The notes below the pieces were generated by a model. That model made no database searches. It was given only the letters and a program-made list of their open reading frames with translations, and was not told the origin of the DNA. Source: an uncultured Candidatus Saccharibacteria bacterium (GTDB lineage: Bacteria; Patescibacteriota; Minisyncoccia; Phycocordibacterales; UBA5272). From it: a stretch of 64,000 bases of DNA. This document shows, piece after piece, positions 23,879 through 62,790 of the stretch. The DNA lies in the NCBI GenBank assembly GCA_964443675.1, contig CAYUDN010000001.1, forward strand, positions 10,862 through 74,861, read 5' to 3'. Positions within the stretch are counted from its first letter, which is position 1. Every line of letters begins with the position of its first letter. The position numbers and the translations under genes were made by a program.

Positions 23879-24391
23879 CTAGTTGGTACGTGGCTTGTGA
23901 AGGCCTTCATACTGCAGACGAGGAAAAGGATACCGGCCAACAGACTTGGTTGCAACCCTGATGACTTGCTCGAAATTGCCGTCGGCAACCTGGGCTTCGT
24001 CGTAGAGCACTGTCGGGCCGAGCATTTCGATGAAGTCACCAAGGCGGACAACCAGTCTGTATTCGGCAGGCTTGCGCCAGAACCAGAAACCACGACCTTT
24101 GGCGGGATTGCGCCAGAACAGCAGTACTGCGCCCTCACCGATCTGGAAGCCATCCACACGCTCGTGCTCGCTAGAGCCGTCGTTGAACTGCTTTCGCACT
24201 TCCGTTTCGGTCAAGGTTCGCACCTGTTCCAAAGAGGCGAACTCATGACGAACTGTCAGGCCGGTAGCGTGACGAATCTCGATACCTTCCTCGTTGATGG
24301 TGATCTGAATCTCACCCATTGCAATTTTGGATTCATCTGTCGGTGAAAGACCTGTGAAGGTTCCAAAGTAACGCTGAATGCCGTGTTCCAT
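23879..24391 (-). CDS. Hypothetical protein (170 aa) on G+C-rich foreign-looking DNA
   Basis: The ATG at 24391 is preceded by a GGAG SD about 8 nt upstream. Codon third positions are strongly G/C-biased, unlike most genes in the window. It contains the tandem motif 'FWRNPAKGRGFWFWRKPAE'. No family was recognised. Overlapping opposite-strand ORFs (23897-24346, 23719-24159) are judged to be GC-driven artefacts. Confidence 0.5.
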   Translation of the reverse strand: MEHGIQRYFGTFTGLSPTDESKIAMGEIQITINEEGIEIRHATGLTVRHEFASLEQVRTLTETEVRKQFNDGSSEHERVDGFQIGEGAVLLFWRNPAKGRGFWFWRKPAEYRLVVRLGDFIEMLGPTVLYDEAQVADGNFEQVIRVATKSVGRYPFPRLQYEGLHKPRTN

Positions 24392-24460
24392 AGCTGATCT
24401 CCGTGTGTATAAAGAACAAAAGCATTATACAACATATATACTGTATTTGTCAATATATGT

Positions 24461-24481
24461 GGACAGTAGAGGATTCGACGA
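24461..24481 (-). repeat. Exact 20-21 nt copy of the tRNA-Val 3' end (att-like partial tRNA duplication)
   Basis: Plus strand gtggacagtagaggattcga is the reverse complement of TCGAATCCTCTACTGTCCAC, identical to the 3' T-arm and acceptor segment of the tRNA-Val at 24835-24906. No upstream tRNA body is present. Confidence 0.6.
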
Positions 24482-24658
24482 TTGTTAAGGGTTTTCTTTT
24501 TCGTGTTGCACACTCAAACAAAAACTCTTAACTTTCGCCTAAGCTTCGTCGCCACAACTTTTGATTACAAAAGTTGGCTTCGCTTGCGGCTCAGTTCGAA
24601 TCCTCTACATGTCGCACAAAACATAATCACCCGAAGCCTTCGCTTCAGGTTCATTGTT

Positions 24659-24680
24659 TTGTGGACAGTAGAGGTTCGGT
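24659..24680 (-). repeat. Degenerate copy of the tRNA-Val 3' end (att-like scar)
   Basis: Plus strand gtggacagtagaggttcggtcc matches the acceptor 3' strand exactly, but its T-loop is degraded (ACCGAAC in place of TTCGAAT). Confidence 0.4.
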
Positions 24681-24795
24681 CCCAAATCTGCCTCGCTTTG
24701 CCTGCCTAAAGGCAAGGCAGACTCGAAGCAGATTCCTGACCTGTATTCGAATCCTCACGAACATGAAGCAGTTCATGTTCTTACTATCCACGAAC

Positions 24796-24826
24796 AAAAA
24801 CGGCACGGATTACCGTGCTCATTTTT
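24796..24826. terminator. Bidirectional intrinsic terminator downstream of tRNA-Val
   Basis: aaaaa-cggcacgg-atta-ccgtgc-tcattttt: hairpin gcacgg/ccgtgc flanked by an A-run and a T-run. Confidence 0.6.
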
Positions 24827-24834
24827 GTACTCGT

Positions 24835-24906
24835 GGACAGTAGAGGATTCGAACCTCTGACATCTACAACGTCAATGTAGCGCTCTACCAACTGAGCTAA
24901 CCGTCC
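24835..24906 (-). tRNA. tRNA-Val (anticodon GAC)
   Basis: Manual fold of the reverse complement: acceptor GGACGGT/ACTGTCC, D-arm GCTC-AGTTGGTA-GAGC, anticodon stem CTACA/TGTAG with loop TTGACGT (GAC), T-arm AGAGG-TTCGAAT-CCTCT and discriminator A. Confidence 0.85.
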
Positions 24907-25016
24907 CTATGATCTACTAGTATACTATATAACACCAATTTTGAAAAAGTAAAATAATATGGTATTATATCGCGTACCGGTGATACTTTTTATTAAAAGG
25001 GTTTCACTATAAAGAC

Positions 25017-25091
25017 GGCCCCATCGTCTATCGGTTAGGACATCGGCTTTTCATGCCGGTAAGCGGAGTTCGACTCTCCGTAGGGTCACCA
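25017..25091 (+). tRNA. tRNA-Glu (anticodon UUC), CCA encoded
   Basis: Collinear with E. coli tRNA-Glu: acceptor GGCCCCA/TAGGGTC (one C-A mismatch, one G-U), D-stem GTCT/GGAC, anticodon stem TCGGC/GCCGG with loop TTTTCAT (TTC), T-arm CGGAG-TTCGACT-CTCCG and encoded CCA. Confidence 0.75.
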
Positions 25092-25212
25092 ACGAAGATT
25101 TATCTTCACCACATTCGGTTGTTTTTACGTTGTTATAACAACGTAAAAGTAGTTGCAATATTTGCGTCATTTTATCTGTTATTTCTCTGATATAACAGAT
25201 AATGTTAGATAA

Positions 25213-25260
25213 CAAAAAAGACCCCCGCTTCGCATGACAATGTCATTTGATTTGGGGGTC
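25213..25260 (-). terminator. Rho-independent terminator of the SPFH gene
   Basis: gaccccc...gggggtc stem with an internal atgacaatgtcat palindrome, followed on the minus strand by TTTTTTGTT. Confidence 0.6.
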
Positions 25261-25278
25261 TGACCAGCACTGGTCTGG

Positions 25279-26217
25279 TTACTTGAGAGGGACTGTCGCC
25301 GGCACAGCCAGTTCGCCGATGATGGCCGTGCAGTTGGCTTTCGCTCCGCACTTCTCCACCGCTTCGACTTGCTTCTTGGCAACTTCCAGCTTGAGGAACT
25401 GCTCCGGCGTAAAGCCGACGCTGTTGCGGTAGGCGTTGTCCGCATTGGCGCGTTCGGTTTCAGCGCCCTTGCGATTGATTTCCGCTTTCCGGCGCTCGTC
25501 TTCAGTCTTTGCACGCTGTTGTTGCGAAGCAGTTTCAGCGAGAGCTTCGAGAACCTTGCTGGGAGGAGTTGCTTTGCCGACGATGACTTCCATCACTTCG
25601 ACATCGATGCCCTTGGCCTTCACGAACTCGCGCATCTCGGTGAGAACGACACGCTGGATTTCTCCGAGAATGTCTTTCCCTTCCTTGTTGAGCTGGCGGG
25701 TTGTGAGGGCTGTCATCGGCGTCTTGGCCACTTCATCGCGCACCGAGGTACGAAACAGTTCCTTAAGGTTCTGCTTGTACCAGTCAGGGCCGAAAGACGC
25801 ATGCAGTTTCGGGGTCTTGCCGGGGATCGGCCGGACCTTGATGTATGCATTGAAGTCGATCGGGATGTTGTCGACGGTGATCGTGCCATCCTTGACGTCA
25901 TCGAACCCTTCCGTAAACTGGAAAGGGCGCGTGTCGTACATGACGACGTTCGTCGTGTAGAAGAGCCACTTCGAGCCGGTGACATGGGGTTCTTGACGAA
26001 CACCGCCGTCACCGAACATCGTGAAGAACGGCTTGTCGATGAGGACGGCCTCGTGACCGGCCTCGACTTGCACCCGTTGCGTGACCATCACCATGAAGGC
26101 GATGAACAGGACGAACGAGATTGCGCCGATGATGCGCTTCTTGTATTGAGTCCAGAAACTGAACTCGTTTTCATGGCCGTAGCTCATGGGATTTCCTTTC
26201 GTGGGTTGTGTTGTCAA
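25279..26217 (-). CDS. SPFH/band-7 (stomatin/prohibitin-like) membrane protein
   Basis: N-terminal TM helix (IIGAISFVLFIAFMVMV) followed by an SPFH-type domain and an Ala/Glu/Lys-rich coiled-coil tail. An AGGAA SD precedes the ATG at 26217. Strongly G+C-rich codon usage. The three +strand ORFs overlapping it are rejected as antisense artefacts. Confidence 0.75.
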   Translation of the reverse strand: MTTQPTKGNPMSYGHENEFSFWTQYKKRIIGAISFVLFIAFMVMVTQRVQVEAGHEAVLIDKPFFTMFGDGGVRQEPHVTGSKWLFYTTNVVMYDTRPFQFTEGFDDVKDGTITVDNIPIDFNAYIKVRPIPGKTPKLHASFGPDWYKQNLKELFRTSVRDEVAKTPMTALTTRQLNKEGKDILGEIQRVVLTEMREFVKAKGIDVEVMEVIVGKATPPSKVLEALAETASQQQRAKTEDERRKAEINRKGAETERANADNAYRNSVGFTPEQFLKLEVAKKQVEAVEKCGAKANCTAIIGELAVPATVPLK

Positions 26218-26584
26218 AAAAACAGAAAATGTATCAGGAACATATATATCATATTATGATTATTATATTTTGTCAAGGCCGAAATTTTGCTTGATTTTAC
26301 TCACTAATACATAGTTCTATACCAGATACGGTATATAAACTAGAAGAGTTTTTGATGGTTTTTCTATGGAAAGATTGTAAAATATAGATATTATTCATAA
26401 TTAGTTAGTGCTAAAAGTCGATTTGGATACTTATTGAAAACTGTTTTCCATTTTATAATCTCATTTTCAATGGTGTTCCACCCTAGATAGTACTGGCTCA
26501 CCTTCAACAGCTAGCACTAGAAGGGTGCTTAAAGTAGTAAAAACAGTGTCTAAAAAACGCTGTTTTTACTATGCTTTTTTACCT

Positions 26585-26613
26585 TGACTTTTTACTACTT
26601 TCATGCTATTATT
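26585..26613 (+). promoter_or_regulatory. Candidate sigma70 promoter for the 26689 gene (TTGACT-N17-TATTAT)
   Basis: Read from the AT-rich 470-bp spacer between the two G+C-rich genes. A 10-bp hairpin gtaaaaacag...ctgtttttac lies just upstream at 26531-26563. Confidence 0.4.
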
Positions 26614-26688
26614 GTAGGAGTCACAATCTGTGGCAAATTGTTTCGGCAATGTAAACCGAGTTTGAACATTTACAAGGAGAGATAACCC

Positions 26689-27582
26689 ATGAACGGGATT
26701 ACTCAAGTCGTTCCTGCAACCGCAGGTCAACTCAAGCAGATCAATCGCATCATCGCTGATGCCGTCGAAAAGATCGTAACTGAACTCGGTCTCGACAAGG
26801 ACGGTGCACAGCGGGTCATCGAACATGGTGACGAACTCGTTGGCAACATCGGCGAGGTCACCCTGGCGACGCTCAAGGACTTGTCGGTCTCCGACAAGTA
26901 CAAGGACGAAGAAGTGAAGTCGAACTACGGCTACCTGTCGGGCTACAAGAAGCCGAAGGGTATCACTGAGCAGACCAACATCCTCCGTCAGCTGTTCCCT
27001 GGCATCGGCTTCGCTGACGAAAAGCTCGTCGAGCATGAAGTACCGAAGAATGCCGACGGATGGTTCGCCATTCCGAAGTGGCAGTCGCTCGCACCGACCT
27101 ATGGTGAAGCGGTGGAACTGGTGCTGAAGAAGCTGAGCGAAACCCGCAACGGTCGTTTCCAAAACTACCGTGAAAGCGAACTCGGTCCTGATCAGCTCCG
27201 CCAATCGGCGAAAACGGCAAGCGTGTTCCAGGAGCTCGCCGAAGAGCAGAACGGCTACGACATCCTCGTGGTCGCAGCCCAATTTGGTCTGCGTCACCGT
27301 GGTCGCTCAGTTCGCCGTGTGCGTGAGATCCTGCTCGGCAACGAGTTCGGACTCGGAGCGTTTGCTGTCGGCATCATGCTCCTCACCCACCCTGAACGAC
27401 TTGCCCACTACGACGATCTCTGGATCGACTGTGCTGGTGACGAGTTCGCTCCGGATGCGGATGGCGACTTCTGGAGGTCTCCGATCTTCATCTTCAGTGG
27501 CGTCAGGCTCAGGTTCGGCACCGACGGTGTGTCGGATGCGGACGGCTGCTGCGGTTCCGTCTCGGGGTTTCTTCCGCTGTGA
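26689..27582 (+). CDS. Hypothetical protein (297 aa), G+C-rich, unknown family
   Basis: A strong SD (caAGGAGAgataaccc) precedes the ATG. G/C-biased third positions. Acidic Gly/Asp-rich C-terminus. No motif was recognised. Confidence 0.55.
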   Translation: MNGITQVVPATAGQLKQINRIIADAVEKIVTELGLDKDGAQRVIEHGDELVGNIGEVTLATLKDLSVSDKYKDEEVKSNYGYLSGYKKPKGITEQTNILRQLFPGIGFADEKLVEHEVPKNADGWFAIPKWQSLAPTYGEAVELVLKKLSETRNGRFQNYRESELGPDQLRQSAKTASVFQELAEEQNGYDILVVAAQFGLRHRGRSVRRVREILLGNEFGLGAFAVGIMLLTHPERLAHYDDLWIDCAGDEFAPDADGDFWRSPIFIFSGVRLRFGTDGVSDADGCCGSVSGFLPL

Positions 27583-27638
27583 TCCTTGGATCTTGGGAAC
27601 TTGATTCTTTTGTTCCCTTGATTCTTGAATCCTTGAAC

Positions 27639-29290: not shown

Positions 29291-29448
29291 AGGGTGGGTA
29301 TTAGAGATTAGACGTTAGACGTTAGACTTTAGAAAATGCAAGATAGAGGCGGCCGCGAAGCGGCTGCCCTCTGTATTTATCTGTTGCCTGAGAGCGCAGG
29401 GATCTGTAGTCCATACTCTAGTGTCTGTCTCTGTGCTATACTTTTTGT
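29291..29448. repeat. Member R1 of the long-hairpin intergenic repeat family (core gaggcggccgc-gaa-gcggctgccctc)
   Basis: Tandem tagacgt motifs on the left and atctgt/gtctgt motifs on the right around a GC-rich GAA-loop hairpin. Related copies are listed below. Confidence 0.55.
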
Positions 29449-36232: not shown

Positions 36233-36748
36233 ATGCAACACTTTTCTTCACAAAAAGGATTTACTTTAGTTGAAATGGTGCTATATGTTGCTATTTGCTC
36301 ATTGTTTTTGGTTTCCAGTTCTTACTTTTTGTCATTTCTTATGGAGTCCAAAGTTCGTTCTCAGGTGATGAATGAAGTAAATCAACAAGGGGTACAAATA
36401 ACCACACTGCTGACAAGAACTATTCGTGGTGCACGAAGCATCGATGTGCCTCTGGTCGGCACTGCCTCTACTACGCTTTCCTTGACCGTGGTAGATGGTA
36501 CTCGTAGCCCAACGGTATTTACTTCCAGTTCTTCTGTGTTTACAATTCGAGAAGGGGGTAAGAGTTCTGTAGCCCTTACAAATCACCGTATTGTGGTAAC
36601 CGATCTTCTTTTCCAAAATGTATCAGCATCTTCTTCGCTTGAAAAAATAGTACGCTTTTCTTTTGTGCTTCGATACGCAACCACAAGTAGTAGTAATGCT
36701 ACGTATGAATATTCTAAAACATTTTCTGGAAGCGCAATTGTGCGTTAA
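36233..36748 (+). CDS. Prepilin-type pseudopilin
   Basis: 'MQHFSSQKGFTLVEMVLYVAICSLFLV'. The ATG at 36233 directly follows the previous stop. Confidence 0.7.
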   Translation: MQHFSSQKGFTLVEMVLYVAICSLFLVSSSYFLSFLMESKVRSQVMNEVNQQGVQITTLLTRTIRGARSIDVPLVGTASTTLSLTVVDGTRSPTVFTSSSSVFTIREGGKSSVALTNHRIVVTDLLFQNVSASSSLEKIVRFSFVLRYATTSSSNATYEYSKTFSGSAIVR

Positions 36749-37339: not shown

Positions 37340-37795
37340 ATGAAAAACTTTACTCGTAACCAGAAAGGATTTACTCTTATTGAAATCCTTCTCGTGGTTG
37401 CTGCTATTGCTATTCTTGCCGGTATTGTGATCGTTGCTATTAACCCAGCTAAGCAGCTTGGTGATACTCGTAACGCAGACCGTCGTTCCGCAGTTAACAC
37501 TATTCTTAACGCGGTTACTCAGTACGCAATTGATAACAACGGTGTTCTTCCAACTGGTATCTCAACTACCACTACAGAAATCTGTTCTTCATCTGTTGCA
37601 ACAACTTCATGTACAGGTCTTGTAGATCTTTCAGTGCTTACTCTTAATGGTAAGTATCTTGGGGCTGTTCCAGATGAACCTCAGAAGACTAATGCAAATG
37701 GCGCAGGGTATATGATCTCTAAGAATTCTAATGGTCGTGTTACTGTAGCTGCACAGTTCGCAGAGCAGGGGGCAACTATCTCTGTAACCCGCTAA
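37340..37795 (+). CDS. pilA: Type IV major pilin (PilA-like)
   Basis: 'MKNFTRNQKGFTLIEILLVVAAIAILAGIV' is a canonical class III signal and N-methyl-Phe pilin N-terminus. The start is moved to ATG 37340. Confidence 0.75.
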   Translation: MKNFTRNQKGFTLIEILLVVAAIAILAGIVIVAINPAKQLGDTRNADRRSAVNTILNAVTQYAIDNNGVLPTGISTTTTEICSSSVATTSCTGLVDLSVLTLNGKYLGAVPDEPQKTNANGAGYMISKNSNGRVTVAAQFAEQGATISVTR

Positions 37796-42168: not shown

Positions 42169-42312
42169 AAAGTAACAAGGAAGAGATATAGAGCGCAGAC
42201 AACAGATAACAGACAATGGGCACATACAATACCCATTACTTATTGCTAGTTGCTGTTTGCTCGCGTTTTCTCCGCGTTTGTTCTGCAACTGTCCGCGTCC
42301 AGTCTGTGTCTG
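42169..42312. repeat. Member R2 of the intergenic hairpin repeat family (gcagacaacagataacagacaa ... tccgcgt/ctgtccgcgtcc motifs)
   Basis: Shares the acagataacagac arm with R4 and R6, and the 'ttctgc...tccgcgt...ctgtccgcgtcc' segment with R3 (45110-45163). Confidence 0.5.
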
Positions 42313-54696: not shown

Positions 54697-55779
54697 TTAC
54701 GCCTTCTTCTCTCCAAACGAAAGTGTCATGCGTTCTTCTTGTGCGTCGAAGAGAGTGATCGCGAACTTGTAACTCTTTCCAAGAGAAAGGGTGTCACGAA
54801 GCTTTGCTTCATCACCAAATTCAGATACATGTACAAGTCCCGCAACTCCTTCTTCAATAGAAACGAGTGCGCCGTGCTTGTTGAACTTGATCACGACACC
54901 TTGTACTTCATCACCCTTTTTATACTTCTTCGCAGCTTCTTTCCAAGGATTCTCCTTGAGCGCCTTAAGAGAAAGGGAGATCTTGTTGTCCTTCACTTCG
55001 ATTACCTTAGCGCGAACCTTATCACCAACACGAGCGTGAGCCTTAGTGTCTTCTACGAGACCCCAATCAATTTCACTCTTGTGAACGAGTCCTTCAACGC
55101 CGTCGTTTAGCTTCACGAAGATACCGAACTCAACTACACCGGTTACAGTTCCTTCTACTTCGTCACCAACACTGTAGGTGCCAAGAGAAACTTCTTTAAC
55201 TTCCTTGTGAGATCCTCCACCATCCTTGTCTGAGAAAGTAAGTTTGCCTGCCTTAGGAATAGCAGAAATGATAGTAACGGAAATACGCTTACCGATAAGC
55301 TTCTTGAGTTCACGAAGAATCTTATCCTTGTCACCATCTTCAATACGTGGATATTTGTCTTCCTTAAGTTGTGAAGCAGGAAGGAATCCAGACATACCTT
55401 GCCATTCGATGATAAGGCCACCTTTGTTAGCGTCTTTGACCACAAGGTCCATAATACGCTTTTCTTTAATTGCTTGTTCTGCATCATTCCACATGAGTGC
55501 CTGACGAGCTTCTTTAAGAGAAAGTTCGACATAGCCATTCTTGTTCTCACGAAGTACAATCTTTGCAGAGATAGTGTCACCAATATTGATACGTTTGATT
55601 ACGTCACGTGCATTCATGAACTCGATACCATAAATGATACCGGTTCCTGCGATACCAAGGTCAACATAGAGTGCTGACTTCTCGATCGCAACGATGATAC
55701 CTTCTACGATATCTTCTTCTTTAAATATAACTGCATCTTTAGCAAAAGGTGCAATCACTTCTGTAGTAGTTGTTGTCAT
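54697..55779 (-). CDS. rpsA: 30S ribosomal protein S1 (four S1 domains)
   Basis: Repeated S1 motifs ('GDEVEGTVTGVVEFGIFVKL', 'DGVEGLVHKSEI', 'GLVHVSEF'). The start is moved to ATG 55779 (MTTTTTEV). Confidence 0.8.
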   Translation of the reverse strand: MTTTTTEVIAPFAKDAVIFKEEDIVEGIIVAIEKSALYVDLGIAGTGIIYGIEFMNARDVIKRINIGDTISAKIVLRENKNGYVELSLKEARQALMWNDAEQAIKEKRIMDLVVKDANKGGLIIEWQGMSGFLPASQLKEDKYPRIEDGDKDKILRELKKLIGKRISVTIISAIPKAGKLTFSDKDGGGSHKEVKEVSLGTYSVGDEVEGTVTGVVEFGIFVKLNDGVEGLVHKSEIDWGLVEDTKAHARVGDKVRAKVIEVKDNKISLSLKALKENPWKEAAKKYKKGDEVQGVVIKFNKHGALVSIEEGVAGLVHVSEFGDEAKLRDTLSLGKSYKFAITLFDAQEERMTLSFGEKKA

Positions 55780-56012
55780 AAAAATAATAATGCTCCAACA
55801 CGAAAGTGGGGGAGCTGCCACATCGGTCTGGTTTCTTACGAGCACTATCACTAAGCGGATAGATCTTTCGAAAGGGTTACGCCAGAACGGTATCTATTAA
55901 ATAGATGGTTGCTATTCTACAATACAAACGTTTCTAATGCAAGAATTGTGAGTAGTAGCTGGAGGGTAAAAAGTAGAAAGAGATGCGAAGGAGGAAGAGA
56001 AGAGGAGAACGG

Positions 56013-56041
56013 TGAGGAACTGAAAAAGCCACAACAGGTGT
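56013..56041. terminator. Bidirectional terminator hairpin aaagccaca-acag-gtgtggcttt
   Basis: T-run on the plus strand (TTTTG) and T-run on the minus strand. It likely ends the minus-strand transcript of the 56170-56358 gene. Confidence 0.5.
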
Positions 56042-56169
56042 GGCTTTTGTCAGGATATGACCTGACCCCGGCTAAGCGGGCTTACACAATCGAGCAACAA
56101 AGATCGGTTACTCAAAACTGTGCGTACTGATGTCTTACTTCTTCAGTATCCTATGGGGTGGCATGCTGT

Positions 56170-56358
56170 TTAGTTGATGCCGTACTCCTTCAGAAGTTGG
56201 TTGATTTCCTCGTCGTCATTGTATCCAATATCCTCTTTGATAAGAGGGTCCAGATACGTATCGAACGAGAACGGTTGTCCAGGTGGAATTTCTTCCACTC
56301 TGGTCACTACTCCCCGGAAGGGGAATGCCCTCATGTGGGCGTCGACTGATATGATCAT
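56170..56358 (-). CDS. Small acidic hypothetical protein (62 aa)
   Basis: An AAAGGA SD sits 5 nt before the ATG. Protein MIISVDAHMRAFPFRGVVTRVEEIPPGQPFSFDTYLDPLIKEDIGYNDDEEINQLLKEYGIN. A promoter-like TATACT and a 5' UTR hairpin gtgagac/gtctcac lie upstream. Confidence 0.4.
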   Translation of the reverse strand: MIISVDAHMRAFPFRGVVTRVEEIPPGQPFSFDTYLDPLIKEDIGYNDDEEINQLLKEYGIN

Positions 56359-56693
56359 CAGAAGTATCCTTTCAAAAAAAGTTGAAGAACAGTGTGAGAC
56401 CCTTCTGTCTCACAGGTATTAGTATAGCACGGGTAGTGTGATTGTGGAAGGTGAAAGGTGGGCCACTTCGCTTGTAGAGAGTGGAAGGGAGGGAAGAATG
56501 AAGAGTGAAAAGGAAAACAAAAAACCGCGGCGACTCCCGTCGTAGCGGCTTCCTGATCAAGTTGTCTTTTTTTGACTTCGTACACACGCTGTGTACCAAG
56601 AGTCTTGATCGCGGAGTTGCGAGCTCCTACTCTTGTGACCTTCTCAGGTCTCTAGATCTTCAACTCAAGGGTTTCTCCTTGTTGAGGTTTTTC

Positions 56694-56861
56694 TTACCGT
56701 TGCCAGGGGGCAGCGGCTTGAGGGCGGCGGGGGATGAACTTCTGCCGGATGGTCTTCGACCGCGCAGTGTGGGTCTTCCGCAGCGCATCGAAGCGTTCCC
56801 GCTTCTTACGCCGCTCCTCTTCTGCGAAGAACTCGCAGAAAGTCTTGTCCCAGTCGGTCAA
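56694..56861 (-). CDS. Small Arg/Lys-rich protein (55 aa), TTG start, translationally coupled to the upstream gene
   Basis: The upstream gene's TAA stop is embedded in an SD (cTAAGGAGAacca), followed by TTG. Frame: (M)TDWDKTFCEFFAEEERRKKRERFDALRKTHTARSKTIRQKFIPRRPQAAAPWQR. G+C-rich. Not in the ORF track. Confidence 0.35.
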   Translation of the reverse strand: MTDWDKTFCEFFAEEERRKKRERFDALRKTHTARSKTIRQKFIPRRPQAAAPWQR

Positions 56862-56870
56862 TGGTTCTCC

Positions 56871-57476
56871 TTAGATGAGTTGTCCCATGAAGTAGAGAGG
56901 GGTCTTGTCGACCGCGCGGAATTGCGAGGAGCGAATGTCCTTATAGCGAGGCATCCGCGGGTCACGCTTTTGCATGCTCTTGTTGTGGTGACCCTTGCAC
57001 TCCAGGACTGTGGTTTGTTCACCGGTATTCGACCGGTAAACCAGCACAGGTTGTCGCTTGCCGATACCTGTGCGACGGTTGAGGTGCAAGCGGCGGCTAC
57101 CACTCCGGTCCTTGTCCTTCTCATTGAAGGTCTCCCGCTCGAACGAACCGGCAGTAGGCTGCCACAAGTCGTGGTCGAAGTGCCACAGTTGCTCGCGGAT
57201 CTTGTTGATCCGCTTGCGCTCTTCGGCGCGGGCGTGCGCGGCAGCGATCTTCTGGTTGATCTCGGCGCGACGCGCCTCGACCAGGGCCTGGTTGTCGGCG
57301 AGCCAGTCATCCATCGAAACCACGACATCTTTCCGCTGGACACGGTAGGCGAGCCAGCCAGGGCCGGATGCCAAGGAAGTCTTCGGCGCCTTCTGTTCCA
57401 TCATCATCCCGACGAAGCCGGGAACGAAGTCGAACGAAACGCGCGGAGAAACTTGTTCCGAAAAAGTCGCAAACAT
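56871..57476 (-). CDS. Hypothetical protein (201 aa) on a G+C-rich islet
   Basis: A perfect SD (tAAGGAGGgtttgaATG) precedes the ATG. G/C-biased codons. The longer +strand ORF 56505-57491 and the nested minus-strand ORF are rejected as GC artefacts. Confidence 0.55.
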   Translation of the reverse strand: MFATFSEQVSPRVSFDFVPGFVGMMMEQKAPKTSLASGPGWLAYRVQRKDVVVSMDDWLADNQALVEARRAEINQKIAAAHARAEERKRINKIREQLWHFDHDLWQPTAGSFERETFNEKDKDRSGSRRLHLNRRTGIGKRQPVLVYRSNTGEQTTVLECKGHHNKSMQKRDPRMPRYKDIRSSQFRAVDKTPLYFMGQLI

Positions 57477-57567
57477 TCAAACCCTCCTTAGGGTATTGCG
57501 TTGAAAGAAATTTGAGAGATCTAATACAACGAACTCTTAGGTATAAGCATAGCATATCTTAGTATTT

Positions 57568-57589
57568 TTGTCAAGTATTTACTTGACAA
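57568..57589. promoter_or_regulatory. Perfect 10-bp inverted repeat operator ttgtcaagta-ttt-acttgacaa overlapping divergent -35 elements
   Basis: Each arm contains TTGACA. Candidate -10 elements are TGaTATTAT downstream on the plus strand and TATGCT on the minus strand. Confidence 0.45.
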
Positions 57590-57646
57590 AGTAATTGTGA
57601 TATTATTAGATAAATTGTTGTTTTTAACCATGAAAGGAACCCTAAA

Positions 57647-57925
57647 ATGGCGTTGTTTGATGTTGCCATTGCAGAAGAAAAGAAGATGAAGATTGTGTTG
57701 CTCGGAGAAGATGAATATTTCCCTGGCATAGCTAGACCCGGAGACAAAGTTGTTGTCGGGGGTCGTGAGACTCCTATCGAAGTATTCAAAGAGTACGCTA
57801 TGAAGAATGGGGCAATGCTCAGAGATCTGGGTGAACGACCTTATTTTTTGATGGCATACCACAATCTTGGTCTCTTTGCTCGACAAGAGTTCTTTGGTTC
57901 TCCTTTGAAACATTTTCTGAACTGA
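57647..57925 (+). CDS. Hypothetical small protein (92 aa)
   Basis: An AAAGGAA SD sits 7 nt upstream. It lies downstream of the palindromic operator and is followed by a strong terminator. Confidence 0.5.
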   Translation: MALFDVAIAEEKKMKIVLLGEDEYFPGIARPGDKVVVGGRETPIEVFKEYAMKNGAMLRDLGERPYFLMAYHNLGLFARQEFFGSPLKHFLN

Positions 57926-57954
57926 TTTCAAGGGTAGGGTTTGGTTTTTTTGGG

Positions 57955-57987
57955 GCGGCGCACGAAGTGCGCCGCTTTTGCTTTTTT
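57955..57987 (+). terminator. Rho-independent terminator (ggcggcgcac-gaa-gtgcgccgc + TTTTGCTTTTTT)
   Basis: Read directly from the sequence. Confidence 0.6.
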
Positions 57988-58004: not shown

Positions 58005-58712
58005 GTGGAAGTTTTGTTTCGTAGTGCTATTTTGTTGCGATGGAAAAATTACTTCTTTTTTGTTACACTAGGTGCCATGATTATTTCGTATTATGGACGG
58101 CAACATTTCAAATTACAAGTAGGTGACTTAACGGTCGCGGTTAACCCTGTTTCTAAGGATGGCAAGGGCAAGGTGTCTAAGTATGGGGCTGATATTACTC
58201 TTATCACTACTAACCATCCTGACTATAACGGTAGTGAACAAACAGAACTTGGTGCGAAGGTTCCTTTTGTGGTTCGTGGTGCAGGGGAGTATGAGGTGAA
58301 TAATATTTTTATTCGTGGATTTGCTACACCTGTTACTCTTAAAGAGGGGAAGACGGAGAAAACATATCAGAATACAAGCTATGTTTTTACTATCGACGGT
58401 ATTCGGGTTACGTTCCTTGGAGCCCTTCATGAAATGTTAAAACCTGAGCATAAGGAGATTATTGATGAGACTGATGTGCTTTTTGTTCCTGTGGGACGTG
58501 ATGGGTTCCTACTTAACCCTTACGAAGCTCATAAACTCGCAGTATCACTTGAGCCGAAACTTATTATTCCTATTGATTATGATGAGCAATCACTCCCAAT
58601 CTTTTTGAAAGAAGCTGGCTCTGAAAAGGTAGAACCAGTAGAAAAGCTTACCATTAAGAAAAAAGACATTGAAGGTAAGTTAGGAGAAGTGGTGCTTTTC
58701 CATGAGATGTAG
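58005..58712 (+). CDS. Hypothetical protein (235 aa; possible metallo-hydrolase-like fold)
   Basis: The GTG at 58005 is the track start; an in-frame ATG lies at 58077. 'ADITLITTNHPDYNG' is weakly reminiscent of an MBL-fold motif. Low-confidence function. Confidence 0.4.
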   Translation: MEVLFRSAILLRWKNYFFFVTLGAMIISYYGRQHFKLQVGDLTVAVNPVSKDGKGKVSKYGADITLITTNHPDYNGSEQTELGAKVPFVVRGAGEYEVNNIFIRGFATPVTLKEGKTEKTYQNTSYVFTIDGIRVTFLGALHEMLKPEHKEIIDETDVLFVPVGRDGFLLNPYEAHKLAVSLEPKLIIPIDYDEQSLPIFLKEAGSEKVEPVEKLTIKKKDIEGKLGEVVLFHEM

Positions 58713-58881
58713 GAAAAAAGAGATAAGACGACAGGATGCAGATAACAGAGTACAGACAACAGAACACAGACAGATAGATGACAGATAAATACAAGGGCGG
58801 CCGCGAAGCGGCCGCCCTTCTGTTATCTGTAAGCGGAGTGAATCTGCTATCTGTTATCTATTCTGTTGTATACTATCTTTA
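58713..58881. repeat. Member R4 of the hairpin repeat family (acagataaatacaagggcggccgc-gaa-gcggccgcccttctgttatctgt)
   Basis: A near-perfect imperfect palindrome of about 130 bp: the left arm has cagataacagagtacagacaacagaacacagacagatagatgacagataa, and the right arm has ctgttatctgt...ctgctatctgttatct. Confidence 0.6.
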
Positions 58882-62613: not shown

Positions 62614-62790
62614 GGGTGGAGGGGTAGAATACAGATAACAGACAACAGATGACAGATGAATACACAAGGGCGGCCGCGAAGCGGCCGCCCCCTTCGTCTA
62701 TCTGTAAATGAGGCGATCTGTCATTTGTACTCTTTTAGTTATCTTTTGTCCCTAGCGTCTCTCGTATAATCTTTATATACTTTCTGGTAT
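62614..62790. repeat. Member R6 of the hairpin repeat family (acagataacagacaacagatgacagatgaatacacaagggcggccgc-gaa-gcggccgccccctt...)
   Basis: Its core hairpin is identical to that of R4. Confidence 0.6.

What the first reader, a model, noticed from the sequence alone, without database searches (positions are those of the whole stretch)
56160..57700. Second G+C-rich islet: unknown 201-aa gene translationally coupled (stop-in-SD, TTG start) to a 55-aa Arg/Lys-rich protein, plus a 62-aa acidic protein, adjacent to a perfect palindromic operator controlling divergent promoters
Seen: the gene at 57476-56871 (minus strand, perfect AAGGAGG SD) ends with its TAA inside a second SD (TAAGGAGA) followed by TTG, opening a 55-codon highly basic frame (56861-56694). 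A 62-aa acidic protein (56358-56170) follows after a CT-rich spacer, and a bidirectional terminator closes the unit (56013-56041). Upstream, the 22-bp perfect inverted repeat ttgtcaagta-ttt-acttgacaa (57568-57589) contains TTGACA in both arms and sits between this unit and a divergently transcribed 92-aa gene with its own strong terminator. The composition (G+C far above background in 56.4-57.5 kb) indicates foreign origin. The organisation (a tightly autoregulated operator, a coupled large and small basic pair, an acidic small protein) resembles toxin-antitoxin or abortive-infection style modules, but no component matches a family I can name. It is therefore a candidate novel accessory system.
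Basis: partly seen in the sequence, partly recalled or inferred. Interest (0 to 1): 0.65.

Follow-up and report, generated by a model that had tools for sequence, protein, structure and literature searches.

The report
Fast-evolving orphan gene cassette in hotspot
This G+C-rich stretch is a real, strain-variable cassette of small orphan genes sitting in a gene-insertion hotspot of an uncultured Patescibacteria genome; its core is a fast-evolving basic protein found only in this clade, and nothing tested here supports calling it a toxin-antitoxin or abortive-infection system.

Summary
Three independent assemblies reproduce both junctions, so it is not a chimera. The host is a Paceibacteria/Nomurabacteria-type Patescibacterium. 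The cassette fills the gap between the divergent S1 and Lactamase_B_3 genes. That gap is 64-200 bp in distant relatives and 0.1-3.9 kb, with variable content, in the close clade.

The 201-aa protein belongs to an unnamed family. It had 7 hits among 1.8 billion representatives, and I found it in about 18 related species, always in this gap. It is basic, mostly low-confidence in AlphaFold2, and has a conserved C-terminal motif domain. The 55-aa and 62-aa genes recur beside it in 4 and 5 species. In four species the core gene stands alone, which argues against an obligate toxin-antitoxin pair.

No component matches Pfam, NCBIfam, PADLOC, PHROGs, PDB, phage or plasmid records. A strain 96-98% identical in the flanks carries a mosaic allele with the 92-aa gene replaced. 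GC3 exceeds the flanks in every family member, although family divergence tracks flank divergence. The palindrome is two inverted copies of the family's extended -35 element, so it is most simply a bidirectional promoter core.

Function is unknown. I favour a dispensable nucleic-acid-binding conflict-type module.

The parts
56871..57476 (-). Core gene p201: 201 aa, pI 10.1. It has a variable N-terminal part (aa 1-57), a long helix (aa 55-101 in the AF2 models) and a conserved basic C-terminal motif domain (GS.ER ... RR.GIGKR ... C..H ... KR..R.P.YKD.RS..FR).
   Evidence: ORF and SD. Homologues. Models. Charge.
56694..56861 (-). p55: 55-aa Arg/Lys-rich protein with a TTG start. It is translationally coupled to p201, whose stop lies inside the p55 SD.
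   Evidence: Homologues lie directly downstream of p201-like genes in L004, L008/L088 and L009, with conserved ends M..W ... AP.PW(K/Q)(R/K).
56518..56552 (-). Intrinsic terminator hairpin plus U-run that ends the p201-p55 transcript.
   Evidence: Fold; coordinates.
56421..56448 (-). Promoter-like site for p62 (TCCACA-16-TATACT with TG).
   Evidence: Part of the about 80%-identical block 56391-56430 shared with L004.
56393..56414 (-). 8-bp stem hairpin (TGTGAGAC-N6-GTCTCACA) about 7 nt downstream of the predicted -10 box of the p62 promoter, so probably at the 5' end of the p62 mRNA.
   Evidence: Hairpins with different sequences occupy the same place upstream of p62 homologues in L004, L008, L005 and L014. 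6 of 8 consensus pairs show compensatory change.
56170..56358 (-). p62: 62-aa acidic protein (pI 4.3) with a conserved N-terminal VDa.mRaFPFrg motif and an acidic tail.
   Evidence: Homologues in L004, L005, L008/L088 and L014.
56024..56048 (.). Hairpin (10-bp arms, 5-nt loop) flanked by an A-run and a T-run. Probable bidirectional terminator separating the cassette from the S1 promoter.
   Evidence: Not flagged by the terminator scan.
57546..57574 (-). Consensus sigma-70-type promoter of the p201 operon: TTGACA-17-TATGCT with a TG extension.
   Evidence: The same (t)ACTTGACAAAA-N14-TGnTATAAT-type element lies upstream of p201 homologues in relatives.
57567..57590 (.). Perfect inverted repeat (11-nt arms, 2-nt spacer): two inverted copies of the extended -35 element ACTTGACAAA.
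   Evidence: Identical in L004.
57578..57606 (+). Promoter-like site for the 92-aa gene (TTTACT-17-TATTAT with TG). The TTGACA of the right arm lies only 12 nt from this -10 box.
   Evidence: spacing read directly from the sequence.
57647..57925 (+). p92: divergently transcribed 92-aa orphan gene with host-like GC3 (0.41). In strain L004 an unrelated 95-aa gene occupies the same slot.
   Evidence: No family or structure match. Only a faint profile match to the divergent genes of L008/L010/L085.
57952..57978 (+). Strong intrinsic terminator of the 92-aa gene. A hairpin at the same position in L004 has matching changes on both stem sides.
   Evidence: L004 sequence; identity map.

Best explanation
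SHOWN. The region is a self-contained, strain-variable expression cassette, about 55,950-57,950. It lies in the gap between the divergently transcribed S1 gene and a Lactamase_B_3 (MBL-fold) gene of a Paceibacteria/Nomurabacteria-type Patescibacterium. Across the clade this gap is a hotspot for accessory and mobile genes.

The core gene, p201, belongs to an undescribed protein family restricted to this clade. The family occurs only at this locus and always points toward S1. It is expressed from a consensus promoter with a strong SD. It is basic and gets low AlphaFold2 confidence outside one long helix. Its sequence diverges far more between species than the flanking genes do, and only a C-terminal motif domain of about 75 aa is conserved. 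p55 is translationally coupled to p201. p62 and p92 are separate transcription units. The inverted repeat consists of two inverted copies of the family's extended -35 element.

INFERRED.
- p201 binds nucleic acid through its Arg/Lys-rich C-terminal domain.
- p201 is a dispensable effector in a genetic-conflict role, against phage, mobile elements or the host organism, rather than a housekeeping factor.
- p55 is made by termination-reinitiation and acts as a partner subunit of p201.
- The acidic p62 modulates or neutralises the basic pair.
- Alleles diversify by homologous recombination. The conserved blocks (flanks, promoter/5'UTR/first 13 codons, helix segment) serve as crossover points, and this recombination may also sustain the GC3 excess through biased gene conversion.
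For: Real sequence: three independent assemblies are 100% identical across both junctions.

Hotspot:
- The S1-lacB gap is 64-200 bp in distant relatives and 106-3,901 bp with variable content in the close clade.
- In other species the gap holds DUF559, a Y1/IS200-like transposase flanked by repeated hairpins, an rve fragment, and weak ParD/RelE-like and RHH-like genes.

Family:
- Only 7 hits among 1.84 billion representatives.
- Every context recovered is this same gap.
- 17 loci, including two near-identical pairs, were found by iterated HMM, plus L024 by eye.

Co-occurrence: p55 in 4 species and p62 in 5.

Fast evolution and mosaicism:
- WIN and L004 are 95-100% identical in the flanks, in 57441-57600 and in 57168-57287, and unalignable elsewhere.
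- pN is 0.19 for p201 against 0-0.003 for the flanks.
- aa 18-57 show 26 nonsynonymous against 6 synonymous codon changes; aa 58-112 show 3 against 7.
- dN between species is 0.39-0.84.

Expression signals:
- TTGACA-17-TATGCT with TG, AAGGAGG, and terminators.
- The same promoter type lies upstream of the homologues.
- The window has only three TTGACA-N16-18-TAnnnT sites, all in the two G+C-rich islets.
- 29 of 53 such sites in 917 kb of relatives lie inside these gaps.

Basic character: pI is 9.6-10.6 in 16 of 17 members.

GC3 excess: +0.15 to +0.49 over the flanks in all 18 members.
Against: - No biochemical or structural evidence exists for nucleic-acid binding. AF2 confidence is low (mean pLDDT 49 and 60), and Foldseek against PDB gives nothing.
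- Nothing matches a known defence or TA protein.
- Family divergence correlates with flank divergence (Mantel r=0.29, p=0.003; congruent nearest neighbours). That fits a resident, vertically inherited gene as well as, or better than, a mobile conflict module.
- Allele replacement rests on a single strain pair (WIN and L004).
- The L004 allele lacks the conserved C-terminal domain, so that domain is dispensable or that allele is decaying.
- p62 and p55 are absent from most family loci.
Confidence: 0.45

Rival explanations
1. Resident clade-specific structural or regulatory nucleic-acid-binding protein. On this reading the p201 family is a nucleoid-, RNA- or ribosome-associated basic protein placed upstream of S1. 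It is highly expressed, vertically inherited and simply poorly constrained. p55, p62 and p92 are unrelated small add-on genes.
For: - Fixed position and orientation upstream of S1 in about 18 species.
- Stand-alone gene in the minimal loci L046, L049, L028 and L018.
- Consensus promoter and perfect SD.
- pI about 10 and low AF2 confidence outside one helix.
- Divergence correlates with the flanks.
Against: - I detected it in only about 18 of 44 clade species, and it is absent from all more distant relatives.
- Mosaic allele replacement between strains only 2-4% apart.
- dN of 0.39-0.84 between species whose lacB proteins are 73-91% identical.
- The C-terminal domain is deleted in L004.
- Codon usage is opposite to that of the host's own highly expressed genes.
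Confidence: 0.22
2. A new type II toxin-antitoxin or abortive-infection module. p201 (with or without p55) would be the toxin or effector. The acidic p62, or p55, would be the antitoxin. The module would be autoregulated at the palindrome.
For: - Stop-in-SD coupling of p201 and p55, also seen in L004; homologues abut p201-like genes in L008/L088 and L009.
- A basic/acidic protein set.
- Palindromes overlapping promoters.
- Patchy distribution in a hotspot that elsewhere holds a weak ParD/RelE-like pair.
- Allele replacement between strains.
Against: - No hit to any TA or defence model, and no RHH, HTH or AbrB fold detected.
- The p201 homologue is the sole gene in the gap in four species, under a consensus promoter. 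An unpartnered toxin should not persist like that.
- p55 occurs in only 4 and p62 in only 5 of about 18 family loci.
- The palindrome is explained by two promoter elements.
Confidence: 0.12
3. Decaying or neutrally drifting orphan DNA. On this reading the cassette is a remnant of an old insertion from a G+C-rich element, or young de novo ORFs, with no current cellular function.
For: - No homology to anything known.
- Low-confidence structure.
- pN/pS of about 0.5 against L004.
- Truncated allele in L004.
- Frequent absence in relatives.
Against: - Motif-level conservation of the C-terminal domain across about 18 species although dS is saturated.
- Purifying pattern in aa 58-112: 3 nonsynonymous against 7 synonymous codon changes.
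- Promoter, SD and coupling retained.
- Compensatory changes in the p62 hairpin.
Confidence: 0.15
4. Artefact: a chimeric assembly across 56.4/57.5 kb, or a G+C-rich structured RNA misread as ORFs.
For: An abrupt composition change and a long antisense ORF (56505-57491 +, 328 aa).
Against: - Contigs from SRR12487045, SRR12487046 and ERZ4216102 are identical across the junctions.
- A syntenic homologous cassette exists in SRR33394499 and in many MAGs.
- There is protein-level conservation.
- No Rfam match at E<=1.
- The antisense ORF follows from the complete avoidance of TTA, CTA and TCA codons.
Confidence: 0.02

Closest known systems
Type II toxin-antitoxin operons (for example RelBE, ParDE, HigBA)
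   Same: Small genes that are translationally coupled, an inverted repeat overlapping the promoter, a basic/acidic protein mix, patchy distribution in a variable region.
   Different: No homology to any toxin or antitoxin superfamily. No recognisable DNA-binding antitoxin fold. The core gene occurs alone in four species. The inverted repeat is accounted for by two promoter -35 elements.
Phage 'morons' (autonomous promoter-gene-terminator units of atypical composition; from my own knowledge of Juhala/Hendrix, lambdoid phages)
   Same: Each unit has its own promoter, strong SD and terminator. Composition differs sharply from the surrounding genes. Presence and absence vary between close relatives.
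   Different: The cassette lies between two chromosomal housekeeping-type genes, not in a prophage. There are no phage genes nearby and no match in phage or viral collections. The family appears to be inherited with the locus.
Mosaic, recombination-shuffled specificity or immunity loci (for example hsdS target-recognition domains, polymorphic toxin/immunity cassettes; from my own knowledge)
   Same: Blocks that are near-identical alternate with blocks that cannot be aligned, between strains that are 96-98% identical in the flanks. A conserved helical segment separates variable segments in p201. A neighbouring small gene is swapped at the same time.
   Different: No homology to HsdS, or to polymorphic-toxin or immunity domains. 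There are no silent spare cassettes or repeats nearby. Only one strain pair is available.
Small basic nucleoid- or ribosome-associated proteins
   Same: pI about 10, Arg/Lys-rich, low predicted-structure confidence, short conserved motifs, strong expression signals, position next to a translation gene (S1).
   Different: No sequence or profile match to any ribosomal or nucleoid protein family. Dispensable in about half of the clade. Extreme sequence turnover and non-host codon usage.

Membership tests
Type II toxin-antitoxin system | Obligate pairing of a toxin gene with an adjacent cognate antitoxin gene | tested here: not met
   The p201-like gene is the only gene in the S1-lacB gap in L046 (541 bp), L049 (737 bp), L028 and L018. 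p55 is present in 4 and p62 in 5 of about 18 family loci.
Type II toxin-antitoxin system | Toxin or antitoxin belongs to a recognised superfamily (RelE/ParE, MazF, VapC, HicA, Doc and others; RHH, HTH, AbrB or Phd antitoxin folds) | tested here: not met
   No hit at E<=1 of any relevance in Pfam, NCBIfam, PADLOC or PHROGs for the four proteins or for 16 family members. No PDB sequence match.
Type II toxin-antitoxin system | Autoregulation by antitoxin binding to a palindromic operator at the promoter | tested here: inconclusive
   The palindrome exists and is conserved in L004. Its arms equal the extended -35 element found singly upstream of homologues that lack a divergent gene. Inner symmetry is kept in WIN, L010 and L008 but not in L005 or L085.
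Type II toxin-antitoxin system | Toxicity of one component, rescued by the other | not testable with these tools
   Requires expression experiments.
Known anti-phage defence or abortive-infection systems (PADLOC catalogue) | Homology of at least one component to a catalogued defence protein | tested here: not met
   PADLOC gave 0 families for all four proteins at E<=1.
Known anti-phage defence or abortive-infection systems (PADLOC catalogue) | Location in a variable island together with other defence or mobile genes | tested here: inconclusive
   In other species the same gap carries DUF559, a Y1 transposase with repeated flanking hairpins, an rve fragment, and sub-threshold ParD/RelE-like and RHH-like genes. 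No catalogued defence gene was found next to a p201 homologue.
Phage moron / prophage remnant | Own promoter and terminator with atypical composition | tested here: met
Phage moron / prophage remnant | Embedded in, or homologous to, phage genomes | tested here: not met
   No tblastn hit in 50,697 phage records. No confirmed hit in IMG/VR. The flanks are S1 and an MBL-fold gene.
Genomic islet at a recombination or insertion hotspot | Variable content between conserved flanking genes across relatives, with an empty site in some | tested here: met
   The gap is 64-200 bp in distant relatives and 106-138 bp in clade members L036, L045 and L040. It reaches 3.9 kb in others, with differing gene content.
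Genomic islet at a recombination or insertion hotspot | Mobility genes or att-type direct repeats bounding the insert | tested here: not met
   There is no integrase or transposase in the window cassette, and no direct repeats bound it.
Diversity-generating retroelement target | Template/variable repeat pair and a nearby reverse transcriptase; substitutions without indels | tested here: not met
   No repeat of the variable segment occurs anywhere in the window. The variable blocks contain many indels.
Structured non-coding RNA (G+C-rich islet in an A+T-rich genome) | Match to an RNA family, or conservation of structure rather than of a reading frame | tested here: not met
   No Rfam match at E<=1. 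Conservation is at the protein level. Only the short hairpin upstream of p62 shows covariation.

The most novel reading that the evidence does not exclude
The p201 family, with its optional partners p55 and p62, could be the effector of a previously undescribed Patescibacteria-specific conflict or immunity module. It would be highly expressed, bind nucleic acid and diversify by block-wise recombination at a fixed chromosomal slot. Its anomalous GC3, kept in all 18 members although its divergence tracks that of the flanking genes, would be maintained by locally intense recombination (GC-biased gene conversion) or by selection on the mRNA.
Probability: 0.2. Interest if true: 0.65.

Novelty: new member of a known kind. 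Interest (0 to 1): 0.38.

Why it matters
Patescibacteria have tiny genomes with many unnamed genes, and little is known about how they handle phages, mobile DNA or their host cells. This locus is a concrete and tractable example for four reasons:
- It is one fixed chromosomal slot that carries different small cassettes in different species.
- It holds a clade-restricted basic protein family with consensus expression signals.
- It shows block-wise allele replacement between near-identical strains.
- It shows a GC3 excess of 0.15-0.49 that persists although the family's divergence tracks that of the flanking genes.

The last point is hard to explain by recent transfer. If confirmed, it would be a useful natural test case for biased gene conversion against selection in an A+T-rich streamlined genome.

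In practice, the result also removes a tempting but unsupported toxin-antitoxin/Abi label.

Tried and rejected
- Family and profile searches of all four proteins and of 16 family members found nothing (Pfam, PHROGs, PADLOC, NCBIfam).
- PDB sequence and profile searches found nothing meaningful.
- AlphaFold2 gave mean pLDDT 49 from the single sequence and 60 from a 9-sequence alignment. Only the helix at 55-101 and a beta-hairpin at 141-160 were moderately confident. Foldseek against PDB had a best E of 7. I did not search AFDB because the model is too poor.
- Rfam found nothing on the region at E<=1, and only two tRNAs in the whole window at gathering thresholds.
- tblastn of p201 and p92 against phages, and of p201 against plasmids, gave no match.
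- A profile-guided scan of IMG/VR and of JGI metagenome contigs with the C-terminal domain gave pattern hits, but none was confirmed. The full-family alignment was too divergent for that tool.
- My DNA scan of metagenome contigs for the palindrome used a 3-nt spacer (NNN) instead of the true 2-nt spacer. This was my error, so more alleles with this promoter may exist unseen.
- Exact-protein look-ups of lacB and the 297-aa neighbour, meant to find further alleles, returned only the two known alleles.
- The apparent deletion at the p92 start in contig L003 is a run of N, not a variant.
- Stop-codon readthrough fusing p201 to p55 is rejected. The two are in frame in WIN and L008/L088 but out of frame in L004 (coordinates).
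- DGR-type diversification is rejected: no template repeat, and the variable blocks contain indels.
- The antisense 328-aa ORF is rejected as a by-product of avoiding A-ending codons.
- The p201 5'UTR shows no unusual structure (z = -0.67).
Full report
1. THE OBSERVATION

- The 201-aa ORF (57476-56871, minus strand) follows AAGGAGG at a 6-nt spacing.
- Its TAA stop lies inside TAAGGAGAACCATTG. The TTG at 56861 is the only start codon available to the 55-codon frame.
- A 62-aa acidic ORF (56358-56170) follows a pyrimidine-rich spacer.
- A 92-aa ORF (57647-57925, plus strand) is transcribed divergently and ends at a strong terminator (57952-57978).
- The inverted repeat at 57568-57589 is perfect. 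It reads best as 10-nt arms with a 2-nt spacer, or 11-nt arms at 57567-57590.

Perfect inverted repeats with arms of at least 10 nt are far more frequent in this window than chance allows: about 20 distinct sites against 0.56 expected. Most of them are G+C-rich terminators. This one is A+T-rich and carries TTGACA in both arms.

The 'bidirectional terminator' is a hairpin at 56024-56048, a few bases from the coordinates given. G+C reaches 0.52-0.62 against about 0.41. The excess is at synonymous sites: GC3 is 0.75, 0.79 and 0.59 for p201, p55 and p62, against 0.26-0.41 in the neighbours. p92 is host-like at 0.41.

Two units were missed. An intrinsic terminator at 56518-56552 closes the p201-p55 transcript. 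p62 has its own promoter-like site (56448-56421), followed by a hairpin (56414-56393).

2. NOT AN ARTEFACT

Contigs from three independent assemblies (SRR12487045, SRR12487046, ERZ4216102) are 100% identical to the window across both composition boundaries. No Rfam family matches at E<=1. The 328-aa antisense ORF follows from the complete absence of TTA, CTA and TCA codons in p201 and p55.

3. CONTEXT

The 80 loci returned for the Lactamase_B_3 neighbour are almost all MAGs labelled Paceibacterota, Nomurabacteria, Parcubacteria or 'Saccharibacteria', mostly from fresh water and groundwater. In these genomes S1 and the MBL-fold gene form a conserved divergent pair.

The gap between them is 64-200 bp in distant relatives (lacB 51-57% identical). 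In the closer clade (lacB 73-100%) it ranges from 106 bp to 3.9 kb, usually with higher G+C than the flanks. Its contents differ from species to species:
- a DUF559 endonuclease-like gene (L062);
- Y1/IS200-like transposases flanked by repeated hairpins (L063, L067);
- an rve fragment (L011);
- a sub-threshold ParD/RelE-like pair (L032);
- a sub-threshold RHH protein (L005).

The slot is therefore a hotspot for accessory and mobile genes. A published survey of aquifer Patescibacteria, which produced some of these same nzgw MAGs, reports hundreds of genomic islands and mostly within-phylum transfer (PMC12455944).

4. THE PROTEINS

p201
- It has almost no relatives. The word-indexed search of 5.8 billion proteins found 2 hits. 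An exhaustive HMMER search of 1.84 billion representatives found 7.
- Every recovered context is this same gap, on the S1-facing strand.
- Iterated HMM searches over the ORFs of the gaps raise the family to 17 loci, including two near-identical pairs, plus L024 by eye. That is about 18 of 44 clade species.
- Only the C-terminal 75 aa or so is conserved: GS.ER, RR.GIGKR, C..(Y)H, KR..RKP.YKD.RS..FR. One subfamily ends YKDRRFR.NGSGKTR.
- N-terminal halves are interchangeable. About half the members begin with 'MC' followed by a short strand-like segment.
- Members are basic: pI is 9.6-10.6 in 16 of 17.
- AlphaFold2 gives confident structure only for a long helix (aa 55-101) and, weakly, a beta-hairpin.

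p55
- Homologues lie immediately after the p201-like stop in L004, L008/L088 and L009. Their ends are conserved: M..W ... AP.PW(K/Q)(R/K).
- L004 keeps the same stop-in-SD arrangement as the window, and the conserved N-terminus begins exactly at the proposed start codons. Both points support the TTG start.
- p55 is in frame with p201 in WIN and L008/L088 but not in L004, so the common feature is coupling, not readthrough.

p62
- Homologues occur in L004, L005, L008/L088 and L014 (VDa.mRaFPFrg plus an acidic tail).

p92
- It has no detectable relative beyond its own population. Its only other signal is a faint profile match (hhalign probability 12%) to the divergent genes of L008, L010 and L085.

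None of the four proteins, and none of 16 family members tested, matches Pfam, NCBIfam, PADLOC, PHROGs or PDB. The p201 family also found no confirmed match in IMG/VR; p201 had no tblastn hit in phage or plasmid records, and p92 none in phage records.

5. EVOLUTION

Contig L004 (SRR33394499) is from a strain whose flanks are 96-98% identical in nucleotides, with lacB and the 297-aa protein identical in amino acids. Inside the gap the alignment is a patchwork.
- 95-100% identical: the flanks, the promoter/5'UTR/first 13 codons (57441-57600), and the helix segment (57168-57287).
- About 80% identical: the p62 promoter and hairpin (56391-56430).
- Unalignable: everything else.

The 92-aa gene is replaced by an unrelated 95-aa gene. 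The replaced stretch runs from just past the shared promoter block to just before the terminator hairpin, which has matching changes on both stem sides in L004. The L004 p201 allele has lost the C-terminal domain.

Codon-level comparison with L004:
- pN is 0.19 for p201, against 0-0.003 for the flanks.
- aa 18-57 carry 26 nonsynonymous and 6 synonymous codon changes.
- aa 58-112 carry 3 nonsynonymous and 7 synonymous codon changes.

Ordinary in-situ mutation cannot produce this pattern in genomes 2-4% apart. It requires recombination with divergent alleles.

Between species, dN is 0.39-0.84 and dS is saturated. Even so, family distances correlate with lacB distances (Mantel r=0.29, p=0.003) and with S1 distances (r=0.21, p=0.02). 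For comparison, lacB against S1 gives r=0.50. Nearest-neighbour pairs agree: L021-L022, L009-L015, L013-L049, WIN-L085. The family is therefore inherited with the locus, or exchanged only among close kin.

Against that background the composition is odd. In all 18 members GC3 exceeds the flanks by 0.15-0.49, mean 0.33. Codon usage avoids essentially all A-ending codons. The non-coding spacer has 0.47 G+C, above the window average of about 0.41.

6. REGULATION

The minus-strand promoter TTGACA-17-TATGCT with a TG extension (57574-57546) is the best match in the region. Nearly every p201 homologue has the same element, (t)ACTTGACAAAA or tATTGACAAA, followed by N14-TGnTATAAT-like sequence.

Where a divergent gene is present, a second inverted copy of this element sits beside the first.
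- In WIN, L004, L085 and L005 the two hexamers are back-to-back, 8 nt apart.
- In L010 and L008 they are back-to-back, 9 nt apart.
- In L009 they are back-to-back, 18 nt apart.
- In L006 they are face-to-face.

Where no divergent gene is present (L013, L018, L028, L046, L015) there is a single copy. Symmetry in the inner spacer is kept in WIN, L010 and L008 but not in L005 or L085.

The simplest reading is a bidirectional promoter core built from two copies of one 11-nt element. An operator function is neither needed nor excluded. In WIN the right-arm TTGACA lies only 12 nt from the best -10 box, so that arm might serve another purpose.

Two further observations:
- ACTTGACAAA occurs exactly twice in the 64-kb window, both times in this repeat.
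- The only three TTGACA-N16-18-TAnnnT sites in the window all lie in the two G+C-rich islets. Across 917 kb of relatives, 29 of 53 such sites fall inside the S1-lacB gaps.

Consensus promoters are thus a hallmark of these cassettes.

Upstream of p62 and its homologues, a hairpin of differing sequence begins 4-8 nt after the -10 box. 6 of 8 consensus pairs show compensatory change, though from only five sequences. This fits a hairpin at the 5' end of the mRNA better than a sequence-specific operator.

7. WHAT IT MOST LIKELY IS

Shown: a self-contained, strain-variable cassette in a hotspot. Its core is a clade-restricted, basic, fast-evolving protein with consensus expression signals. It has a coupled small basic partner, a separately transcribed acidic protein and an exchangeable divergent gene.

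Inferred (confidence about 0.45 for the whole statement): p201 binds nucleic acid through its C-terminal domain. It acts as a dispensable effector in a genetic-conflict setting, with p55 as a partner subunit and p62 as a modulator. Diversification is by block-wise recombination, which may also sustain the GC3 excess.

Main rival (0.22): an ordinary, poorly constrained nucleoid- or ribosome-associated protein that happens to sit upstream of S1.

Nothing matches a known toxin, antitoxin or defence protein. The core gene also stands alone under a strong promoter in four species, which an unpartnered toxin could not tolerate.

Neutral decay (0.15) is opposed by motif conservation despite saturated dS, by the purifying pattern in the helix, and by the retained expression signals.

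8. NOVELTY AND SCORE

The kind of thing is familiar: a small variable islet of orphan genes at a hotspot. The proteins are new families, so I rate it a new member of a known kind.

Two features deserve a specialist's attention. One is the persistent synonymous-site G+C excess in a family whose divergence tracks its flanks. The other is the near-exclusive association of consensus promoters with these cassettes.

Function remains untested, and I give interest 0.38. The most novel reading still open is a Patescibacteria-specific conflict module with recombination-maintained composition. I give it a probability of about 0.2.

Noticed in passing
window 23879-27600: This is the first G+C-rich islet. 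It flanks tRNA-Val (24833-24906, -) and tRNA-Glu (25017-25091, +). An exact 20-nt copy of the tRNA-Val 3' end lies at 24459-24478, and an 80% copy at 24661-24680, which look like att-type remnants. Its genes are an SPFH/Band_7 protein (25279-26217, -; GC3 0.72) and orphan ORFs of 297 aa and 170 aa (GC3 0.69 and 0.60). Two of the window's only three TTGACA-N16-18-TAnnnT sites lie here (26276-26248 and 24453-24424, both minus strand), the same promoter type as in the second islet.
   Followed up: partly
window 58712-58832, 62626-62705, 29348-29384, 42183-42213: A repeated element family. It consists of CAGA/ACAGA-rich short repeats followed by a G+C-rich hairpin, GGCGGCCGCGAAGCGGCCGCC. It occurs downstream of the Lactamase_B_3 gene and at two or three other sites, and looks like a REP-like or terminator element (families D1, D2, I6).
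   Followed up: no
L063 (gap coordinates 742-1507) and L067 (1385-1637): In two Nomurabacteria genomes the same S1-lacB gap holds an IS200-like Y1 transposase gene (Pfam hit obtained for the L067 copy). It is flanked by repeated hairpins such as GATAGGGGCTCAACCCCTATC, which resembles a REP-associated transposase arrangement.
   Followed up: partly
L032 gap ORFs 169-387 and 389-643: An adjacent 72-aa and 84-aa gene pair with sub-threshold ParD-like and RelE/HigB-like matches occupies the same slot in another species.
   Followed up: partly
window 36251-36292 and 37361-37402: Two copies of a sequence encoding a type IV pilin-like N-terminus (KGFTL(V/I)E...), suggesting tandem pilin genes (family D11). 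The pilin reading is my own, made from the sequence.
   Followed up: no
window 55779-55851 and 58005-58077: Start codons of the flanking genes are probably over-extended in the mechanical ORF list. Gene calls on other contigs give S1 357-360 aa, which suggests an ATG near 55779 rather than the GTG at 55851. The MBL-fold gene is called at 211 aa or 235 aa in different assemblies.
   Followed up: no
L091-L098 (JGI metagenome contigs): A 10+10 palindrome with a 3-nt spacer, TTGTCAAGTA-NNN-TACTTGACAA, occurs in promoter-like contexts in unrelated contigs, most of them more G+C-rich than this genome. Four of them share the flanking sequence AAAATAAAGGATTTA. It may be an operator or promoter motif of another lineage. 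I found it through a mis-specified search.
   Followed up: no
p201 family N-termini (P0005, P0008; L005, L013, L018, L021, L024, L026, L028, L030): About half of the family members, and two 60-aa ORFs in the same slot, begin with Met-Cys followed by a short hydrophobic, strand-like segment (MCVLIVE, MCILIID, MCQVHRV and similar). Cys2 is not universal in the family, and its significance is unknown.
   Followed up: no
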